A stretch of 64,000 nucleotides of DNA from Akkermansia muciniphila (GTDB taxonomy: Bacteria; Verrucomicrobiota; Verrucomicrobiia; Verrucomicrobiales; V1-33). A model generated the notes under the pieces. It was not told where the DNA came from, did not search any database, and was given only the letters and a program-made list of their open reading frames with translations. This document shows, piece after piece, positions 10,739-15,572 of this stretch (position 1 is its first letter; each line of letters begins with the position of its first letter). The stretch is taken from the NCBI GenBank assembly GCA_945861415.1, contig CAMAUV010000008.1:2944-66943 (forward strand), in the 5' to 3' direction. Both the position numbers and the translations under genes were made by a program.

Positions 10739-11308
10739 TCAGCCGGGGATAGCCCCCGGAGGATGATCCCAAAGTCCGGCAGCATGGACAAAGGTTCGCA
10801 GCACCAGTAGGCTGGCCACTGCATCGTAGAGAGCGTCGTGGAACTTCAGTCGCGGGCAAAGCGCGTCTAATTCTAGGCTAAATCCCAGCGCTTCCGCGAG
10901 GGCCTCCAACGAGTAGTCCGGCAGTCCCGGCCACGCCCGCCGGGCCAGCGTCAGTGTGTCGACCCACGGTCCAAAACCGTGCACCGGAAACAACCGGAGG
11001 AAGCGCTTTTCCGTCCCGGCCGAATGAGCCACCACCACGCGGCCCGCGAGCCGGTTGCGGAACTCCGGCCACAGCGCCGACATTTCCGGGGCACAGTGCA
11101 ACTGCTCTGTCGTGATGCCATGCACCCTCCTCGCCGCCCATGTGACACTCCGGCGCGGATTGAGATAGCTGCGAAAAAACGTGTCAACCATCATCTCAGG
11201 ACCCTTCATGCACGCCATGCCCGCCTGCACCGGAGCATCCGTCTGCCCCGGGGCTTCGCCCGCGCTTTCAAAATCGATCGCCGCGAAAATGGTGTCGCTT
11301 ATGGTCAT
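10739..11308 (-). CDS. 3'-5' exonuclease, DEDDh/DnaQ family
   Basis: ExoI IDFESAG, VHGI, VVAH, ExoII-region WVDTL and ExoIII HDALYDA. Confidence 0.9.
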   Translation of the reverse strand: MTISDTIFAAIDFESAGEAPGQTDAPVQAGMACMKGPEMMVDTFFRSYLNPRRSVTWAARRVHGITTEQLHCAPEMSALWPEFRNRLAGRVVVAHSAGTEKRFLRLFPVHGFGPWVDTLTLARRAWPGLPDYSLEALAEALGFSLELDALCPRLKFHDALYDAVASLLVLRTFVHAAGLWDHPPGAIPG

Positions 11309-11424
11309 TCTTTATTGAGTTAAAGGGTCTCGCGGAATTGGCAATGCGCAAGACTTGCGGGTGCCGACTTTTCCGCGTTGAGTAAAAGGGATTCCTGTGG
11401 ATCGGTTCCGCCAGCCACTGTCCT

Positions 11425-12429
11425 ATGCGATTCACAACTTTCATCCTCCTTGCCTCTGCTGCCTGCGGTCATGCAGAGCCGGGAAACTATTACGCCAGCA
11501 CAGCCGAACTCTCAGGATCGGCGTTGCGCGCGGAATTGCACCGACTGGTGAAGGCCACCCACGTCCCCATGGACTACACCCCCTCGCGCGCGGCGCTTGA
11601 GTCTATCGATGAAGACCCGGCCAATCCTGCGAACCTTATCATGATCTATACTCGCCGGAGCGAACCAAAGACGAACTTTGTAAAGAGCCCGCCGCAAAAC
11701 ACCACGGAATGGAATCGTGAGCACCTCTGGCCAGACAGCCGCGGAATCCTGGGGAACGGAGCGGATTATTCCGACCTCTTCAATTTGCGTCCGGCGGATG
11801 TCACGGTGAACTCCGACCGCGCGAACCTCGCCTTCGAAGAAACCAGCACTGCGGGATCCGGGGCCGTCGTTCCTGGCAGCCCAGAGGCGCCGCAGACCAC
11901 CCGCGATGTCAACTCATGGGAGCCTCCTCCGGAGGTTAAAGGCGACATCGCCCGCAGTATGTTCTACATGGTTCTGCGCTATGATGGCGATGCTTCGCAG
12001 GAACTGGACCTCACGCTCACCGATAACATGGCGCTCGTCACGGGAAGCCAGCCCGTGATGGGCCGGCTCACCACCCTGCTGCTCTGGCATCTCGCCGATC
12101 CCGTAAGCCCGGAGGAATCTATCCGCAATGACCGCGTACAGGCGAGACAAGGAAACCGGAACCCCTTCATCGACCGCCCGGAATGGGTAAAAACCATCTA
12201 CGGCGACCCGATCGCCATGGAGAGCAGTCGCACGGCCACGCAACTTACCATTCGCTGGTGGGCAGGGCTGGAAAACGGCGTGCTGGAGACATCCCCAACA
12301 ATCAGTGGCTCTTGGACCACGGTCATCGGCACACCCACAGTAAGCGGCAATTCCGCCACGCTCATCACTTCCGCCAGCGCCGGGCGGCGGTTCTACCGTG
12401 TGCGGTATCGGGGGATTGAGTCGCCTTAG
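11425..12429 (+). CDS. Secreted endonuclease I / extracellular ribonuclease (EndA/Bsn-like) with C-terminal surface-protein-type tail
   Basis: Signal peptide; WNREHLWP, SDLFNLRP, NSDRAN, KGDIARSMFYM and QGNRNPFID motifs; ends ...RRFYRVRY. Confidence 0.9.
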   Translation: MRFTTFILLASAACGHAEPGNYYASTAELSGSALRAELHRLVKATHVPMDYTPSRAALESIDEDPANPANLIMIYTRRSEPKTNFVKSPPQNTTEWNREHLWPDSRGILGNGADYSDLFNLRPADVTVNSDRANLAFEETSTAGSGAVVPGSPEAPQTTRDVNSWEPPPEVKGDIARSMFYMVLRYDGDASQELDLTLTDNMALVTGSQPVMGRLTTLLLWHLADPVSPEESIRNDRVQARQGNRNPFIDRPEWVKTIYGDPIAMESSRTATQLTIRWWAGLENGVLETSPTISGSWTTVIGTPTVSGNSATLITSASAGRRFYRVRYRGIESP

Positions 12430-12438
12430 AATTCGCGA

Positions 12439-13440
12439 TCAATTCACCGTATCGCCCGGGAAAGGATCCGCGGTGAGACGCAGGTCCACTTCTTTGGCCA
12501 TCGGCGAACCCGGCAGCGGCGGCGGCGGGCGCGGAATGAACGTCGCGGCTGCGGTGGCTAGCACGCCGGCGGTGAGTGTGGCAGCAACGGCCATCCCCTT
12601 CCGACCACCGGGGGGACGTGGCACATAACTAAGGATGCTGCGCACGCGCTGTTCCAATCCAGGACCGGCCATCGCGGCGGAGAGCATCGGACGGTCGGTC
12701 ATGTGGCGGAAGCGGTCGGCGATATCGATGAGGTGCATGGCGTAGCATTTGGGCGCGACGCCGGTGCTCAGCACTAGGGCATCCGTAGCGGTCTCGCGCT
12801 CGCGCATCCAGATGCGGTGAAGCACCCAGACGAAAGGATTGAACCAGTGCAGCGCGCAGGCCAAGTAGCCCAGCGTGGCCATGCCCGGATCGCGGCGTTT
12901 GAGGTGAGCAAGCTCGTGCAGCAGCACCATTTGGAGTTGCTCAGTGCTCCACTCCAGTGCGTCCTCCGGCAGAAAAACGGTGCCGCGCCAGAAGCCGCAG
13001 GCCGCCGGCATTGTGCGCCATTTAGTCAGCCGCACTTCCGGCACGGCAGGAAGGTCCAGAATCATGGCTGCCTCGCGCGTCTCGGCCATGATGCGCATGT
13101 TAGTCGCCCGCGTCGAGCGGCGCAGCCATTGCTGGAGACGAATCCAACCAGGCAACAGGCGACCGGCCACCAGCAAAAACCCCGCAGCCCACACCGTGAC
13201 GGGTAGTTTCCACGATACCGTGAATGCAGCCACGCTATCCACTGCCGTAGCAGCCCGCGGCATGGTCACTTCCCAGCGCGGGAGAAACAGCCCCAGTGGC
13301 AGAGCCAGCAACGCCAAGAGACCAAACGCCGCAGCCACCGTGCGCATTCGCCCACGTAGTTTCCAAACAGCAAATGCGGCCGCGCCGCTGATGACGAGGC
13401 CACGGAGGGCGAGATCAAGGAAGAAAAGTGGCCAGTTCAT
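12439..13440 (-). CDS. M56 family metallopeptidase (BlaR1/MecR1-like) without penicillin-binding sensor domain
   Basis: N-terminal TMs; LLHELAHLKRRD, ALHWFNPFVW, ERETATD and LEQRVRSIL; final TM, Pro-rich linker and 20-aa tail. Confidence 0.92.
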   Translation of the reverse strand: MNWPLFFLDLALRGLVISGAAAFAVWKLRGRMRTVAAAFGLLALLALPLGLFLPRWEVTMPRAATAVDSVAAFTVSWKLPVTVWAAGFLLVAGRLLPGWIRLQQWLRRSTRATNMRIMAETREAAMILDLPAVPEVRLTKWRTMPAACGFWRGTVFLPEDALEWSTEQLQMVLLHELAHLKRRDPGMATLGYLACALHWFNPFVWVLHRIWMRERETATDALVLSTGVAPKCYAMHLIDIADRFRHMTDRPMLSAAMAGPGLEQRVRSILSYVPRPPGGRKGMAVAATLTAGVLATAAATFIPRPPPPLPGSPMAKEVDLRLTADPFPGDTVN

Positions 13441-13490
13441 AGGAGGAAGGCTAAAGGATGAAGGCTATGCGGGGCTAGTGACTGGGAAAT

Positions 13491-13982
13491 CTAATAAGAG
13501 GATCGAGTGAAGGAGTTTTCAGTTTTTGAGGGACTGTTTTTAAATTGCGGCTGACCATCGGGCTCAAGACCAGCCAACCTGAATGATTCGGCGACTACTT
13601 TGTTGTGAGTAGTGGCTCCACGCATCCGTGGTTCCTCTTCAGGGTCCCGTATCCTCCGCTCCCGTCTGCCAGCCGCCACATTAACCAGAGTGAAGTTCAT
13701 GCCACTTATCTCGCAATAAACAATCTTATCCCAGCGAACCGAATCAATCAGCCTTCTTAGTTGGGTCCCCTCGTAAGGCAGAACCTTTTTGACCAGCCCA
13801 GCCCGGTGCTGTCCTGCAGTTATGAACGTCAGTTTGAGATCACCACATGCTCTTACTTCAATCTCTATGGAATCACCTTGATCGTCAAAGCCGATCAGCG
13901 GCGAATCTTGAAAGGACGGCCAGTAGCCGTAAGTGGACGCCGCTTCTTCGTATCCCTTCAAGTATGTCTGGGCAGGCCACAT
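13491..13982 (-). CDS. Hypothetical protein, possibly Imm50-like immunity protein
   Basis: 163-aa ORF, visibly lower GC than its neighbours; YGYWPSFQD resembles the FGYWPSFHD motif I recall from Imm50-family proteins. Confidence 0.5.
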   Translation of the reverse strand: MWPAQTYLKGYEEAASTYGYWPSFQDSPLIGFDDQGDSIEIEVRACGDLKLTFITAGQHRAGLVKKVLPYEGTQLRRLIDSVRWDKIVYCEISGMNFTLVNVAAGRRERRIRDPEEEPRMRGATTHNKVVAESFRLAGLEPDGQPQFKNSPSKTENSFTRSSY

Positions 13983-13997
13983 AGTGCGGGGCGCAGA

Positions 13998-14387
13998 CTA
14001 CTTACCATCCGGCGCGGCGTTCACCAGTGCGCGGATGCGTTCGATTTCCCGGTCTCCCAGTTTTCCGTCATCCGGATCGAGCAGGGCGGCGACGAGTTTT
14101 TCGGCGGAGTTGTCGTAGAAGGTGTCGAGGAGGCGGCGGAGGGCGCTACGTTTGGCACGGTCAGCGCTGACGGTGGGCTTATAAATATACTTGCGGCCGT
14201 CGCGCTCGTGTTTGAGCACGCCTTTGTCCACTAAAATGGCCAAGAGGGCTCGCACGGCGGAATAGCTGGGTGGCTCGGGGATGTTCTCCTGAATTTCCTG
14301 CGCGGATGCCTTACTGAGCCGGTATACGACGTCCATGATCTGGCGTTCACGGCGGGAGAGGTGCTGATTGTCATTCACAGGAGTCAT
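13998..14387 (-). CDS. BlaI/MecI/CopY family transcriptional repressor
   Basis: LSRRERQIMDVVY, PSYSAVRALLAILVDKG, RKYIYKP and LRRLLDTFYDNS. Confidence 0.95.
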   Translation of the reverse strand: MTPVNDNQHLSRRERQIMDVVYRLSKASAQEIQENIPEPPSYSAVRALLAILVDKGVLKHERDGRKYIYKPTVSADRAKRSALRRLLDTFYDNSAEKLVAALLDPDDGKLGDREIERIRALVNAAPDGK

Positions 14388-14405
14388 TAAATTGTATGAG
14401 TATTC

Positions 14406-14518
14406 TGCTAAGTTTTAAGCAACAACTCGGCAACGTCAACCACTCGTCTCGACTTTATGCTAAAATGTTTAACAGAATTCCAGTTGACTCTTTCTGATTA
14501 ATGCTGAAATCTTAGCAT
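14406..14518. promoter_or_regulatory. Divergent promoter region with repeated operator-like palindromes TGCT-N8-AGCA
   Basis: TGCTAAGTTTTAAGCA (14406-14421), ATGCTGAAATCTTAGCAT (14501-14518) and degenerate TGCTAAAATGTTTAACA (14458-14474); -35-like TTGACG on minus (14434-14439) and TTGACT on plus (14484-14489). Confidence 0.7.
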
Positions 14519-14542
14519 AAAATTCCAACTCCTGCAACTTTT

Positions 14543-15382
14543 ATGCTCCGACGTTTTCTGTCACTACTCGCCGTCCTATCCGCCGCTGTCGTCCTTAGCA
14601 ACTGCGCCAGTTCCGGCGGAGCGCCTTACGCTTCTGCCGCAGTAGCGCGCTTCGGAGCAGACAGCTATTCCCGCTCCACGGAAGCCAGGCCAATGGTGGC
14701 ATGCGCCCCGCAGGAACGCTATGGCCTAGCCACCGTCTGGGGCAACAAAGTGGACGACAAGGCGAACAGCACCATCTTTGACCGCGACAGCGGCAAACCG
14801 GTAGGTGTGGCCAAAGTCTTCTACAATAACAACGCCGGTGCCTCCGCCATGGCCGGCTCCGACTACAGCTACAGCAATTCCTTTCGCGACTACGCCGGCG
14901 GCATTTTCCGCCTAGGTCTGCGCAACCACCGCGGTGCCGCGCTCTCCGCCTACCAGACCAACGGCAACCTCGTCTGCATCGGCGAAGAAGGCCAGCGCTA
15001 CTCCATGGAAGTGGAAAACCTCAGCAATCACCGGCTGGAATTTGTCGTCACTGTCGATGGACTGGATGTGCTCTCCGGCCAGTCCGGCAGCTTTTCCCGC
15101 CGCGGGTATGTGCTCGACCCCGGCGAGCGCCGCGAGGTCAAGGGCTGGCGCACTAGCATGAATGAAGTGGCCAGCTTTAAATTCGGCGGTGTGGACGACG
15201 CTTACGTGGGCAAAAAGACCGGCGATACCCGCAACGTCGGCGTCATCGGCTGCGCGGTCTTCTCCGAACGTGGGACCAATCCCAAGCCCTATGCCGGCAC
15301 CGACAGCTACCGCCGCCTGCGCGCCGATCCCTTCCTCGCCAGCCCAGTCGGCAGCGGGTTCGCAACCCCGCCGACGCGCTGA
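14543..15382 (+). CDS. Uncharacterised lipoprotein
   Basis: Lipobox LSNC; conserved-looking beta-rich domain (GQRYSMEVEN...VTVDGLDVLSG...GYVL...GWR...NVGVIGCAVFSE); C-terminal RRLRADPF...FATPP. Confidence 0.85.
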   Translation: MLRRFLSLLAVLSAAVVLSNCASSGGAPYASAAVARFGADSYSRSTEARPMVACAPQERYGLATVWGNKVDDKANSTIFDRDSGKPVGVAKVFYNNNAGASAMAGSDYSYSNSFRDYAGGIFRLGLRNHRGAALSAYQTNGNLVCIGEEGQRYSMEVENLSNHRLEFVVTVDGLDVLSGQSGSFSRRGYVLDPGERREVKGWRTSMNEVASFKFGGVDDAYVGKKTGDTRNVGVIGCAVFSERGTNPKPYAGTDSYRRLRADPFLASPVGSGFATPPTR

Positions 15383-15415: not shown

Positions 15416-15462
15416 CCCGCCGGCTGAGATGAAGGCCCCCTCGCAGCCGGCGGGTTTTTGTT
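15416..15462 (+). terminator. Rho-independent terminator after the lipoprotein gene
   Basis: CCCGCCGGCTG / CAGCCGGCGGG 11-bp stem followed by TTTTTGTT. Confidence 0.75.
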
Positions 15463-15572
15463 CGTAATGATCACGCCTGGCAGGAACGCAATTCCTTCAG
15501 CCTGCCGGATAGGATAATAAAGCGGTACCGACGGCCCGGCGTCTATGCCGTCCAGCAGACAGCGACACTCTC

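What the first reader, a model, noticed from the sequence alone, without database searches (positions are those of the whole stretch)
12439..15382. BlaI / sensor-less M56 protease / divergent lipoprotein module whose two C-termini share an RLxADPF motif
Seen in sequence: the M56 protease has no penicillin-binding sensor. After its last TM it has only a Pro linker and a 20-aa tail, EVDLRLTADPFPGD (RLTADPF at 12460-12480). The divergently transcribed lipoprotein ends in DSYRRLRADPFLASP (RLRADPF at 15314-15334). The two proteins are otherwise unrelated, yet carry the same motif (6 of 7 residues identical) near their C-termini, both predicted to be extracytoplasmic. Established: in BlaI/BlaR1 systems the protease inactivates the repressor to induce the divergent gene. 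Inference: the protease tail may mimic the lipoprotein's own docking peptide. The lipoprotein, or a shared partner, could then bind the tail and report its abundance, folding or processing, giving a feedback envelope-signalling circuit unlike beta-lactam sensing.
Basis: partly seen in the sequence, partly recalled or inferred. Interest (0 to 1): 0.8.

Follow-up and report, generated by a model that had tools for sequence, protein, structure and literature searches.

The report
Protease tail copies neighbouring lipoprotein's tail
A membrane protease that controls a gene switch has, instead of an antibiotic sensor, only a short tail copied from the lipoprotein it regulates, and that lipoprotein is predicted to grip the tail, which would name a ligand for one group of the poorly understood sensor-less relatives of the penicillin sensor BlaR1.

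Summary
The window holds blaI (13998-14387, -), a sensor-less M56 protease (12439-13440, -) and a divergent lipoprotein (14543-15382, +). Both motifs sit at the stated coordinates.

- The lipoprotein belongs to a large family with no Pfam model. It has 5004 cluster representatives, and its C-terminal R-x-x-A-x-P-F tail is almost invariant.
- Every intact M56 of this subfamily that I read ends in the same peptide. In register, the likeness spans about 17 residues.
- None of 32 M56 paralogues read from related genomes carries it, nor do 33 M56 proteins of other subfamilies.
- A profile built only from lipoprotein tails of loci without an adjacent M56 ranks this M56 first among 38,620 ORFs of the genome.
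- A co-fold places the M56 tail on the most conserved face of the lipoprotein's beta-sandwich: score 0.93, best of 3 controls 0.05.

The lipoprotein tail also occurs in Myxococcota and Chthoniobacterales without an adjacent M56, so I read it as the older of the two and the M56 tail as the copy.

Best reading: the lipoprotein docks on the protease tail and gates BlaI cleavage, giving a feedback loop. Binding and its direction are untested. This is a new variant of the BlaI/BlaR kind.

The parts
12439..13440 (-). Sensor-less M56 (BlaR1-type) membrane metalloprotease, 333 aa
   Evidence: PF05569 at 1.4e-24, 87.2 bits against a cut-off of 31. It is the only M56 match in the genome. Hydrophobic segments at 4-28, 31-56, 79-97 and 282-303.
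12904..12918 (-). HELAH zinc-binding motif (residues 175-179)
   Evidence: Regex on the translation. H175, E176 and H179 are invariant in alignment A2.
12532..12597 (-). Last transmembrane segment (residues 282-303)
   Evidence: Kyte-Doolittle window above 1.5. It is preceded by RPPGGRKG.
12442..12531 (-). Extracytoplasmic tail (residues 304-333): Pro-rich linker plus docking peptide
   Evidence: Everything after the last TM segment. The linker varies between relatives while the peptide is conserved.
12454..12492 (-).
   Evidence: R321, A324, P326, F327 and P328 are invariant and E317 and L322 at least 90% conserved in 20 subfamily members. These residues make the predicted contacts.
13441..13997 (-). 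557-bp lineage-specific insertion between blaI and the M56 gene, holding orphan ORF 13491-13982 (163 aa)
   Evidence: No counterpart in the 20 relatives' loci compared; six same-genus loci have gaps of 12-103 bp there. GC3 is 0.51 against 0.71-0.76 in the neighbouring genes, and it is single-copy in the genome. No homologues beyond itself and one partial hit. Two DNA contigs from other runs span it without gaps.
13998..14387 (-). BlaI/MecI/CopY-family repressor, 129 aa
   Evidence: PF03965 at 2.2e-28. It scores below every NCBIfam equivalog cut-off.
14405..14423 (.). Candidate operator 1 (TGCTAA...TAAGCA dyad) beside the blaI start
   Evidence: Nearly the same sequence is present in the six same-genus intergenic regions shown.
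14456..14476 (.). Candidate operator 2 (degenerate TGCTAA-N5-TTAGCA dyad)
   Evidence: In same-genus loci it is a near-perfect dyad, CTGCTAA-N5-TTAGCAG.
14500..14520 (.). Candidate operator 3 (ATGCTGAAATCTTAGCAT palindrome), 22 bp upstream of the lipoprotein start and just downstream of TTGACT (14484-14489)
   Evidence: It is conserved in position in the same-genus loci.
14543..15382 (+). Lipoprotein of a large uncharacterised family, 279 aa
   Evidence: No Pfam or NCBIfam family. 864 hits; 5004 cluster representatives at E of 0.001 or better.
14543..14605 (+). Signal peptide and lipobox (LSNC, Cys21)
   Evidence: Read from the sequence. C21 is present in at least 90% of 39 aligned homologues.
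14606..14716 (+). Low-complexity tether (residues 22-58)
   Evidence: pLDDT 40-59, no secondary structure. Not alignable among homologues.
14717..15292 (+). Beta-sandwich domain (residues 59-250) with the predicted peptide groove
   Evidence: pLDDT 91-97 over most of it. Predicted contacts at 59-61, 89-106, 142, 170-173, 181-185 and 230-238. 14 of 30 contact positions are invariant or nearly so, against 35 of the other 166 (Fisher p 0.004).
15293..15379 (+). C-terminal tail (residues 251-279) with RLRADPF at 15314-15334 and ...GFATPPTR at the end
   Evidence: A261, P263 and F264 are invariant and R258 at least 90% conserved in 39 homologues. pLDDT 55-67.
15440..15467 (+). Terminator-like hairpin and T-run after the lipoprotein gene
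   Evidence: Pattern scan only; 7 such sites in the region against 3.7 expected.

Best explanation
This is a BlaI/BlaR-type regulated-proteolysis switch. The penicillin-binding sensor has been replaced by a short linear peptide that copies the C-terminal tail of the lipoprotein encoded next door.

The lipoprotein family has a beta-sandwich domain with a highly conserved groove, and a tail of the form [WY]-T-x-x-E-[VI]-x-x-R-x-x-A-x-P-F-P-G.

In class Verrucomicrobiae, one M56 subfamily carries the same peptide as its only periplasmic element. It sits on a Pro-rich linker after the last membrane helix.

I propose that the tethered lipoprotein domain docks on this protease tail. Occupancy would set the activity of the cytoplasmic-face zinc protease towards BlaI. 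BlaI would bind the dyads in the 155-bp divergent promoter region and repress both the lipoprotein gene and its own operon.

The direction I think most likely, by analogy only, is negative feedback. Free lipoprotein holds the protease off. Anything that occupies or removes the lipoprotein's groove frees the tail. BlaI is then cut and more lipoprotein is made.

Shown by computation: gene content; the conservation, specificity and homology of the tail; genome-level co-occurrence; a confident predicted interface.

Inferred: periplasmic location of both partners, real binding, BlaI cleavage, operator use and the sign of the loop.
For: 1. Lipoprotein tail.
- A261, P263 and F264 are invariant and R258 nearly so in 39 homologues down to 36% identity.
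- 81 of 83 lipoprotein ORFs in 80 genome loci carry R..A.[PA]F within 25 residues of the C-terminus.
- So do 140 of 146 new cluster representatives, within the last 40 residues.

2. M56 tail.
- All 14 neighbouring M56 in the first 20 relatives' loci end in R-L-x-A-[DN]-[PA]-F-P.
- 8 more were found.
- 29 of 30 in the genome-contig loci have it; the 30th is cut by a contig end.
- All 34 proteins of the subfamily (P0121-P0154) have R-x-x-A-x-P-F; 31 of the 34 fit the stricter pattern I searched with.
- R321, A324, P326, F327 and P328 are invariant while the linker varies.

3. Specificity.
- 0 of 32 M56 paralogues with intact C-termini read from related genomes have it: 26, 3, 3.
- 0 of 33 M56 proteins of other subfamilies have it (P0155-P0187).
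- In this genome the strict motif occurs only in these two genes.

4. Homology of the tails. In register, the likeness runs from -11 to +5 around the invariant Ala. At -7, E is 100% in M56 tails, and E or D 99% in lipoprotein tails. R at -3, A at 0 and F at +3 are 100% in both. A profile of 52 distinct lipoprotein tails, taken only from loci without an M56 neighbour, ranks this M56 first among 38,620 ORFs of the genome (E 5.2e-4, 21.0 bits). The genome's own lipoprotein comes second (0.019), and the next ORF scores 0.18.

5. Co-occurrence. The module is adjacent in most genomes. Where it is unlinked (G017, G028, G337, G342), the tail-bearing M56 and the lipoprotein are both still in the genome. 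In 4 of 5 genomes whose lipoprotein lacks a neighbouring M56, a blaI-M56 pair with the tail lies elsewhere.

6. Co-fold of lipoprotein residues 55-250 with M56 residues 303-333.
- Scores 0.93, 0.94 and 0.93; best of 3 controls 0.05.
- In the tool's calibration the mark was reached by 58 of 80 solved complexes and 2 of 110 mismatched pairs. These counts hold only roughly, because my own alignments were used.
- The runs agree in at least 96% of contacts, and the partner's pLDDT is at least 82.
- The contacts involve the invariant peptide residues and the invariant R59, G61, G99, D172, G173, N231-V234, G236 and A238.

6a. Groove conservation. The groove residues are kept in all clades. This includes family f58, where the lipoprotein's own tail has lost the motif but the M56 tail keeps it.

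7. Context from papers. Passages of Kurtz et al. [quoted passage not shown]
Against: - No experiment of any kind backs this. The co-fold is a model's confidence, not a measurement, and its calibration counts hold only roughly with my alignments.
- AlphaFold2 monomer models did not place the lipoprotein's own tail with confidence. pLDDT was 55-67 in the window's protein, and 52 and 37 for the last two 10-residue blocks of a relative from the set without M56. So the idea that the groove's ancestral ligand is the family's own tail is unproven.
- Structural searches gave no significant relative, so 'peptide-binding domain' has no support from a solved homologue.
- The lipoprotein with its tail lives without an adjacent M56 in Myxococcota and Chthoniobacterales. 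Its primary function is therefore something else, still unknown.
- In this genome a 557-bp insertion separates blaI from the M56 gene. Co-transcription here is uncertain.
- The promoter scan found no sigma-70-like site for the lipoprotein gene.
- Relatives are not independent. The pairing may go back to one or a few origins, so the many concordant loci amount to fewer independent observations than their number suggests.
Confidence: 0.6

Rival explanations
1. Both tails are ligands of a third, unidentified envelope protein such as a periplasmic adaptor, chaperone or outer-membrane component. The lipoprotein and the protease would compete for it or be brought together by it. The lipoprotein domain would not bind the protease tail directly.
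For: The lipoprotein tail is conserved in phyla where no M56 lies beside the gene, so it must have a partner there. AlphaFold2 does not dock it on its own domain. Short linear motifs are commonly read by dedicated domains (general knowledge).
Against: The co-fold puts the M56 tail on the lipoprotein's most conserved surface with score 0.93 against 0.05 for the best of 3 controls. The mark was reached by 58 of 80 solved complexes and 2 of 110 mismatched pairs, roughly, since my own alignments were used; the runs agree in at least 96% of contacts and the partner's pLDDT is at least 82. No third protein with the motif, and no conserved third gene, was seen in this genome or in the 80 loci. In family f58 the lipoprotein has lost its own motif but keeps the groove, and the M56 keeps the tail. 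That pattern fits direct groove-tail pairing better.
Confidence: 0.2
2. The shared peptide is a processing or degradation signal. A periplasmic protease would cut both proteins there, and trimming of the M56 tail would be the activating step, much like site-1 cleavage of anti-sigma factors.
For: The motif lies close to both C-termini, on flexible segments with pLDDT below 70. Regulated proteolysis cascades often start with a periplasmic cut (general knowledge).
Against: I found no candidate protease linked to the module. A cleavage signal does not explain the equally invariant groove of the lipoprotein, nor the confident docking of the peptide into it. The distance from the motif to the C-terminus varies from 0 to 15 residues in M56 proteins, which fits poorly with recognition of the chain end.
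Confidence: 0.08
3. The similarity has no present function: either a chance match, or a relic of an old recombination between the two neighbouring genes.
For: A 6-of-7 match between two tails is expected now and then in a scan of many windows. BLASTP weakly extends the alignment into the M56 last helix and the lipoprotein's last strand, which could hint at a recombination origin.
Against: The peptide residues are invariant across class-level divergence while the adjoining linker varies freely. The tail is kept even where the genes are unlinked. It is absent from all 32 paralogues read.
Confidence: 0.02

Closest known systems
BlaR1/BlaI and MecR1/MecI of Staphylococcus aureus and Bacillus licheniformis (PMC9834060, PMC3356374: search listing and start of abstract only)
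   Same: A winged-helix repressor gene followed by a four-TM M56 zinc protease with HEXXH in the cytoplasmic loop, transcribed divergently from the regulated gene. The last TM leads to the extracytoplasmic signal-receiving part.
   Different: There is no penicillin-binding domain. The receiving part is a 30-residue tail. The proposed ligand is a protein, the product of the regulated gene, not a beta-lactam. The regulated gene is not a beta-lactamase or a PBP.
Non-canonical BlaIR systems: CenIR of C. difficile (PMC13492132, passages read) and PvmSR of P. aeruginosa (bioRxiv 10.64898/2026.08.03.742534, passages read). The M. tuberculosis and M. abscessus systems are known to me only as cited in the latter.
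   Same: The BlaR homologue lacks the beta-lactam sensor. [quoted passage not shown]
   Different: In those systems no ligand is known, and no likeness between the tail and a regulon product is described in the passages I read. Here a specific, conserved peptide and a candidate binding partner can be named.
Envelope feedback inhibitors that belong to the regulon they control: CpxP-CpxA and MgrB-PhoQ (recalled, not checked here)
   Same: The product of the induced gene returns to the periplasmic face of the sensor. This gives negative feedback that can be relieved by titration.
   Different: Those sensors are histidine kinases with folded periplasmic domains. Here the sensor is a protease bearing a bare linear motif that copies the regulator's own tail. 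The direction of the effect is not known here.
Outer-membrane lipoprotein sentinels RcsF-IgaA and NlpE-CpxA; DegS activation by C-terminal peptides of outer-membrane proteins (recalled, not checked here)
   Same: A tethered lipoprotein, or a C-terminal peptide, reports envelope status to an inner-membrane signalling protein. In the DegS case the result is regulated proteolysis.
   Different: The roles are reversed here: the peptide is on the inner-membrane protease and the binding domain on the lipoprotein. None of the proteins are homologous.
MATH/TRAF-type peptide-binding beta-sandwiches (USP7 TRAF-like domain with p53 peptide, 2f1x; SPOP MATH, 8dws)
   Same: These are the best structural matches of the lipoprotein model, and they are beta-sandwiches that bind short linear motifs on a sheet surface.
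   Different: The matches are weak: Z 5.5 with rmsd 3.9 over 106 residues, and Z 5.2 with rmsd 4.0 over 111. That lies within the range the tool calls a common arrangement. Foldseek found nothing at E of 0.001 or better. No membership is claimed.

Membership tests
BlaI/MecI/CopY repressors (Penicillinase_R) | Winged-helix Penicillinase_R domain above the Pfam cut-off | tested here: met
   PF03965 at 99.3 bits against a cut-off of 22.6, covering residues 10-123 and profile positions 1-114 of 115.
BlaI/MecI/CopY repressors (Penicillinase_R) | Equivalence to a named BlaI, MecI or CopY (NCBIfam cut-offs) | tested here: not met
   CopY_TcrY scores 58.1 against 121.95 and BlaI_of_BCL 40.3 against 180. 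It is a family member but not an equivalog of a characterised repressor.
BlaI/MecI/CopY repressors (Penicillinase_R) | Dyad operators in the divergent promoter region | tested here: inconclusive
   Three TGCTAA-N5-TTAGCA-like dyads at 14405-14423, 14456-14476 and 14500-14520, conserved in the six same-genus loci shown. Binding was not tested, and more distant genera have other sequences there.
BlaR1/MecR1 beta-lactam sensor-transducers | Peptidase_M56 domain with HEXXH | tested here: met
   PF05569 at 87.2 bits against a cut-off of 31. HELAH at 175-179. H175, E176 and H179 are invariant.
BlaR1/MecR1 beta-lactam sensor-transducers | Four membrane segments, with the protease domain between the third and fourth | tested here: met
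   Hydrophobic segments at 4-28, 31-56, 79-97 and 282-303. The orientation is inferred from flanking basic residues and from the BlaR1 topology, not tested.
BlaR1/MecR1 beta-lactam sensor-transducers | C-terminal penicillin-binding (transpeptidase-like) sensor domain | tested here: not met
   Only 30 residues follow the last TM segment. NF000326 scores 73 bits against a cut-off of 400 and matches profile positions 104-304 of 585. So it works like a BlaR but is not a beta-lactam sensor.
Bacterial lipoproteins | Signal peptide ending in a lipobox with an invariant Cys | tested here: met
   MLRRFLSLLAVLSAAVVLSN-C21. C21 is present in at least 90% of 39 homologues. Lipidation and final location were not tested.
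MATH/TRAF-like peptide-binding domains | Significant structural similarity to a solved member | tested here: inconclusive
   Best VIA-align Z is 5.5, with rmsd 3.9 over 106 aligned residues (2f1x_A). Foldseek's best is E 4.1e-3 with TM 0.23.

The most novel reading that the evidence does not exclude
A BlaR-family protease senses a protein rather than a small molecule. Its entire sensor is a short linear motif, most likely taken from the tail of the outer-membrane-tethered lipoprotein whose gene it controls. The lipoprotein's groove and the protease's tail would form a contact across the periplasm that reports how much free lipoprotein there is, and hence its trafficking or ligand load. This would be the first ligand named for the sensor-less majority of BlaR proteins. 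It would also be an example of a regulator evolving by copying a peptide from its own target: in the paired lineages the target's own tail then decays, and in one family it is lost.
Probability: 0.45. Interest if true: 0.85.

Novelty: new variant of a known kind. Interest (0 to 1): 0.78.

Why it matters
Passages of Kurtz et al. [quoted passage not shown] In CenIR, effort to find it failed.

This module offers a concrete, cheaply testable answer for one large subfamily: a defined 13-17-residue peptide, a defined candidate receptor domain, and predicted contact residues.

It also brings to notice a lipoprotein family that matched no Pfam or NCBIfam model here. It has 5004 cluster representatives and spans Verrucomicrobiota, Myxococcota and Pseudomonadota. 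Its invariant tail-and-groove design suggests self-association or autoinhibition.

Last, it shows how a signalling protein can gain a new input by acquiring a short linear motif from its own regulon.

Tried and rejected
Family searches for the lipoprotein. Pfam and NCBIfam gave nothing for the lipoprotein or the orphan ORF. The ESM Atlas gave only unnamed clusters, plus DUF7918 on 11% of one cluster at score 0.89. I make no claim from either.

Structure searches. Foldseek against the PDB found no match at E of 0.001 or better. The wide VIA-align search peaked at Z 5.5. I do not file the domain under any fold family.

Own-tail docking. AlphaFold2 monomers of the window's lipoprotein and of P0080 left the tail at low confidence.

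Search for a third partner. No other ORF of this genome carries the strict motif. In the 80 loci, the loose pattern outside M56 and lipoprotein ORFs hit 39 places in other six-frame ORFs (10 within 25 residues of an ORF end), none in a conserved neighbouring gene, and the strict pattern hit one 78-aa ORF. Neighbours of the lipoprotein in loci without M56 were two Ser/Thr kinases and a UvrD helicase in Sorangium. In Chthoniobacterales they were a PNP-family phosphorylase, a MiaB-like radical-SAM enzyme and a CrgA-like protein. None gave a lead.

Fusions. None of the best 150 representatives is longer than 401 aa, and none carries an M56 part. Only the top 150 of 5004 were seen.

Origin of the pairing. 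A FastTree of 102 lipoprotein domains needs 10 changes of the M56-neighbour label, against 33.8 in shuffles. Deep branches are weak, and several 'no' rows are contig ends or unlinked cases. I dropped L163 (cut) and L047-L049 (the same genomes as L031-L033). I claim neither a single origin nor a direction of transfer from this tree.

Pro-to-Ala covariation. M56 tails with Ala in place of the invariant Pro occur only where the lipoprotein tail also has Ala (L040, L160, L165). But six lipoproteins with Ala pair with M56 tails that keep Pro, and the three cases represent about two events. This is suggestive only.

Promoter scan. One sigma-70-like site was found, on the minus strand (14418-14391). 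That is no more than shuffles give (mean 0.9). None was found for the lipoprotein gene.

Expression. Contigs of two metatranscriptome runs from one study cover parts of the M56 gene, the insertion, blaI and most of the lipoprotein gene. The tool warns that this does not show transcription. The stretch 12414-12735, which includes the tail codons, had no cover in either run, and that proves nothing.

G058. It has a lipoprotein with no neighbouring M56, and its M56 matches were not read. G351 gave no tail-bearing M56, but its completeness is not known. G322 has a tail-bearing M56 at a contig end and no lipoprotein match with this query.

Literature. Four full-text searches found no paper describing this motif, this lipoprotein family or this pairing. 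The library omits most subscription journals.

Full report
**What is there**

The window comes from an uncultured member of Verrucomicrobiales. Its nearest relatives in named records are Verrucomicrobiales MAGs. Near-identical DNA is held by runs labelled freshwater or lake-water metagenomes; 12 rows from four studies hold at least half of the sampled words, and three of those rows may be the source sample.

On the minus strand lie blaI (13998-14387; PF03965 at 2.2e-28) and an M56 peptidase gene (12439-13440; PF05569 at 1.4e-24). On the plus strand, 155 bp from blaI, lies a 279-aa protein with a signal peptide and lipobox Cys21 (14543-15382) and no Pfam or NCBIfam family.

The M56 protein is the only one in this genome. 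It has hydrophobic segments at 4-28, 31-56, 79-97 and 282-303, with HELAH at 175. Only 30 residues follow the last segment. NCBIfam's BlaR1 model matches only positions 104-304 of 585, at 73 bits against a cut-off of 400.

**The observation**

BLASTP finds nothing else in common between the two proteins.

A 6-of-7 match alone could be chance in a scan this large. Within this genome, however, [RK]L.A[DN]PF occurs only in these two genes among 38,620 six-frame ORFs.

**The lipoprotein family and its tail**

The lipoprotein has 864 word-index hits. A full profile search gives 5004 cluster representatives at E of 0.001 or better, and 3944 at 1e-10 or better. The best 150 are all 207-401 aa long and match through to their C-termini.

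- In 39 aligned members down to 36% identity, A261, P263 and F264 are invariant and R258 nearly so.
- 140 of 146 new representatives have R..A.[PA]F in the last 40 residues.
- AlphaFold2 gives a confident beta-sandwich for residues 60-250, with pLDDT above 90. The 22-58 tether is disordered and the tail is at low confidence.
- No solved structure matches significantly. The best rows are peptide-binding MATH/TRAF sandwiches at Z of about 5.

**The M56 tail in relatives**

I took genome searches and fetched flanks through the genus, family, order and class. I also scanned named genomes with the lipoprotein alignment, which gave 80 loci.

- Of 26 related genomes with the lipoprotein, 20 have blaI-M56 divergently adjacent to it.
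- Two (G017, G028) have the pair elsewhere in the genome.
- Two have contigs that end just past blaI.
- G038 has no M56 at all.
- G058's paralogues were not read.

Every M56 of this kind with an intact end carries R-[LWHF]-x-A-x-[PA]-F-P, followed by 0-15 more residues.

- In the 80 named loci, 30 have the adjacent pair. 29 of the 30 M56 proteins have the tail, and the 30th is cut by a contig end.
- The other 50 loci are from Polyangiaceae (including Sorangium and Chondromyces), other Myxococcota, Chthoniobacterales, some Verrucomicrobiae and one Parabeggiatoa. They have the lipoprotein without blaI-M56 and still keep the tail, typically RRxxA[DN]PFPGQFATPP.
- In the subfamily alignment, R321, A324, P326, F327 and P328 are invariant while the Pro-rich linker is not conserved.

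**Specificity**

M56 paralogues in the same genomes are mostly long multi-domain proteins.

- 26 with intact ends were read, 3 and 3. None has the motif. Six more were cut by contig ends and could not be judged.
- Of the protein hits to this M56, all 34 members of its subfamily have R-x-x-A-x-P-F. None of the 33 from other subfamilies does.

**The tails are homologous, not merely alike**

Aligned on the invariant Ala, the likeness runs from -11 to +5: an aromatic residue then Thr/Ser at -11 and -10 (clear in the lipoprotein tails, only a plurality in the M56 tails), Glu at -7, Val/Ile at -6, Arg at -3, Ala at 0, Asp/Asn at +1, Pro at +2, Phe at +3, Pro at +4 and Gly at +5.

I built a profile from 52 distinct 17-residue lipoprotein tails, taken only from loci without an M56 neighbour. 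Searched against all ORFs of the window's genome, it ranks the M56 protein first (E 5.2e-4). The genome's own lipoprotein comes second (0.019) and noise follows (0.18).

So the M56 tail is closer to the version of the lipoprotein tail found where no M56 lies beside the gene than the local lipoprotein's tail is.

Pro at +4 is found in 100% of M56 tails and in 80% of lipoprotein tails without an M56 neighbour, but in only 13% of lipoprotein tails with one. In family f58 (G321, G224) the lipoprotein has lost the motif altogether. Its groove residues and the M56 tail are kept.

This pattern looks like a hand-over of the groove's ligand from the lipoprotein's own tail to the protease's tail. Relatedness among the genomes confounds it, so I treat it as a lead.

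**Predicted binding**

I co-folded lipoprotein residues 55-250 (alignment A1) with M56 residues 303-333 (alignment A2).

- Scores were 0.93, 0.94 and 0.93. The best of 3 controls scored 0.05.
- In the tool's calibration, 58 of 80 solved complexes and 2 of 110 mismatched pairs reached the mark. The counts hold only roughly, because my own alignments were used.
- The runs agree in at least 96% of contacts. The partner's pLDDT is at least 82.
- The least-error contacts put A324-P328 against residues 170-173, 182-184 and 231-238, and put V318, R321 and L322 against 93, 102 and 103.
- Fourteen of the 30 contact positions are invariant or nearly so in the family, against 35 of the other 166 (Fisher p 0.004).
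- The groove residues are constant in clades with and without M56.

This supports binding but does not show it.

**Regulation**

The 155-bp intergenic region holds three dyads of the type TGCTAA-N5-TTAGCA, at 14405-14423, 14456-14476 and 14500-14520. The third lies just after a TTGACT and 22 bp before the lipoprotein start. All three are present in the six same-genus loci compared. More distant genera have other dyads there. Their use by BlaI is inferred.

Contigs from two metatranscriptome runs cover most of the lipoprotein gene and parts of blaI and the M56 gene. That is compatible with expression but does not prove it.

**How it most likely works**

By analogy with BlaR1, the part after the last membrane helix is the signal receiver, and the zinc protease on the cytoplasmic face inactivates BlaI.

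Here the receiver is a bare peptide. Its best-supported ligand is the lipoprotein's conserved groove. The lipoprotein has a tether of about 37 residues and the protease a Pro-rich linker, so a meeting across the periplasm is plausible. This holds whether the lipoprotein sits in the outer or the inner membrane.

Because the ligand is the product of the controlled gene, the circuit is a feedback loop. I favour negative feedback that is relieved when the groove is otherwise occupied, by analogy with CpxP-CpxA and MgrB-PhoQ (recalled from memory). That step is the weakest.

The main rival is an unseen third protein that reads both tails (0.2). A shared cleavage signal (0.08) and no function at all (0.02) are less likely.

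**Comparison with what is known, and novelty**

The repressor and protease are ordinary members of their Pfam families. The system fails the defining BlaR1 feature, the penicillin-binding domain.

Sensor-less BlaR proteins are now recognised as the majority, and their signals are unknown (PMC13492132, passages; bioRxiv 10.64898/2026.08.03.742534, passages).

My four literature searches found no description of this tail, of the lipoprotein family or of their pairing. Supplements were closed, and subscription journals are largely absent from the library.

I rate this a new variant of a known kind: the BlaI/BlaR logic with a new type of input, a short linear motif copied from the regulon's own product.

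**Verdict**

- Binding and signalling are untested.
- Interest 0.78.

Noticed in passing
window 13441-13997 (ORF 13491-13982, minus strand): A 557-bp insertion with low GC3 (0.51 against 0.71-0.76 in the neighbouring genes) splits blaI from the M56 gene in this genome only. It holds a 163-aa orphan ORF with no family and no homologues beyond itself and one partial hit. DNA contigs from other samples span it, so it is not an assembly artefact. It may uncouple M56 expression from blaI here.
   Followed up: partly
L175 (G321:C5) and L176 (G224:C4), family f58: The lipoprotein next to blaI-M56 has lost the A-x-P-F tail motif (its tail ends ...RRTEPKEFPSS... or ...RATASRPGGGAHGFASPP). Its groove residues and the M56 tail (WTxxEIxxRLxADPFP) are kept. 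This is a natural 'tail-less lipoprotein' variant, useful for testing the model.
   Followed up: partly
L040 (G027), L160 (G046), L165 (G054): The otherwise invariant Pro of the M56 motif is Ala (ADAF, AEAF, ANAF) only in genomes whose lipoprotein tail also has Ala at that place. Six lipoproteins with Ala pair with M56 tails that keep Pro. This may be co-variation, but it rests on about two independent events.
   Followed up: partly
L063 3227-5598 (Sorangium) and L060 3281-5670 (Chondromyces): In these two Polyangiaceae loci the lipoprotein gene follows two ORFs of matching size and order on the same strand. In L063 both are Ser/Thr protein kinases by Pfam; the L060 pair was not scanned. This may be a different regulatory context for the same lipoprotein family.
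   Followed up: partly
L083, L087, L094 (Polyangiaceae and other Myxococcales loci): Tandem duplicates of the lipoprotein gene. In L083 and L094 both copies keep the tail motif; in L087 the weaker copy has lost it.
   Followed up: no
L147 (G017), L148 (G028), L168 (G342), L169 (G337), L177-L179, L182: In these genomes blaI-M56 with the tail is not next to the lipoprotein gene. In L147 and L148 the gene divergent from blaI looked to me, by eye only, like a GDSL-type hydrolase with a signal peptide and a HEAT-like protein. So the BlaI regulon may extend beyond the lipoprotein, or differ from it.
   Followed up: partly
window 12282-12327 of M56 against lipoprotein 223-264 (protein coordinates): BLASTP extends the tail alignment back into the M56 last membrane helix and the lipoprotein's last beta-strand (14 of 46 identical, E 0.013). 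This may be a trace of how the tail was acquired, or it may be noise.
   Followed up: no
window 10739-12429: The convergent neighbour of the M56 gene is a secreted Endonuclease I homologue (11425-12429; PF04231 at 5e-35) with a C-terminal extension of about 80 residues. Its stop lies 9 bp from the M56 stop. Upstream of it is an RNase T-family exonuclease (10739-11308; PF00929 at 1.6e-15).
   Followed up: no
L082 (labelled Vicinamibacteria) and L100 (labelled Cryomorphaceae): Two MAGs labelled as other phyla carry the full Verrucomicrobiae-type module, and their lipoproteins nest among Verrucomicrobiaceae and Rubritaleaceae in the tree. Mis-binned contigs seem more likely than transfer.
   Followed up: no
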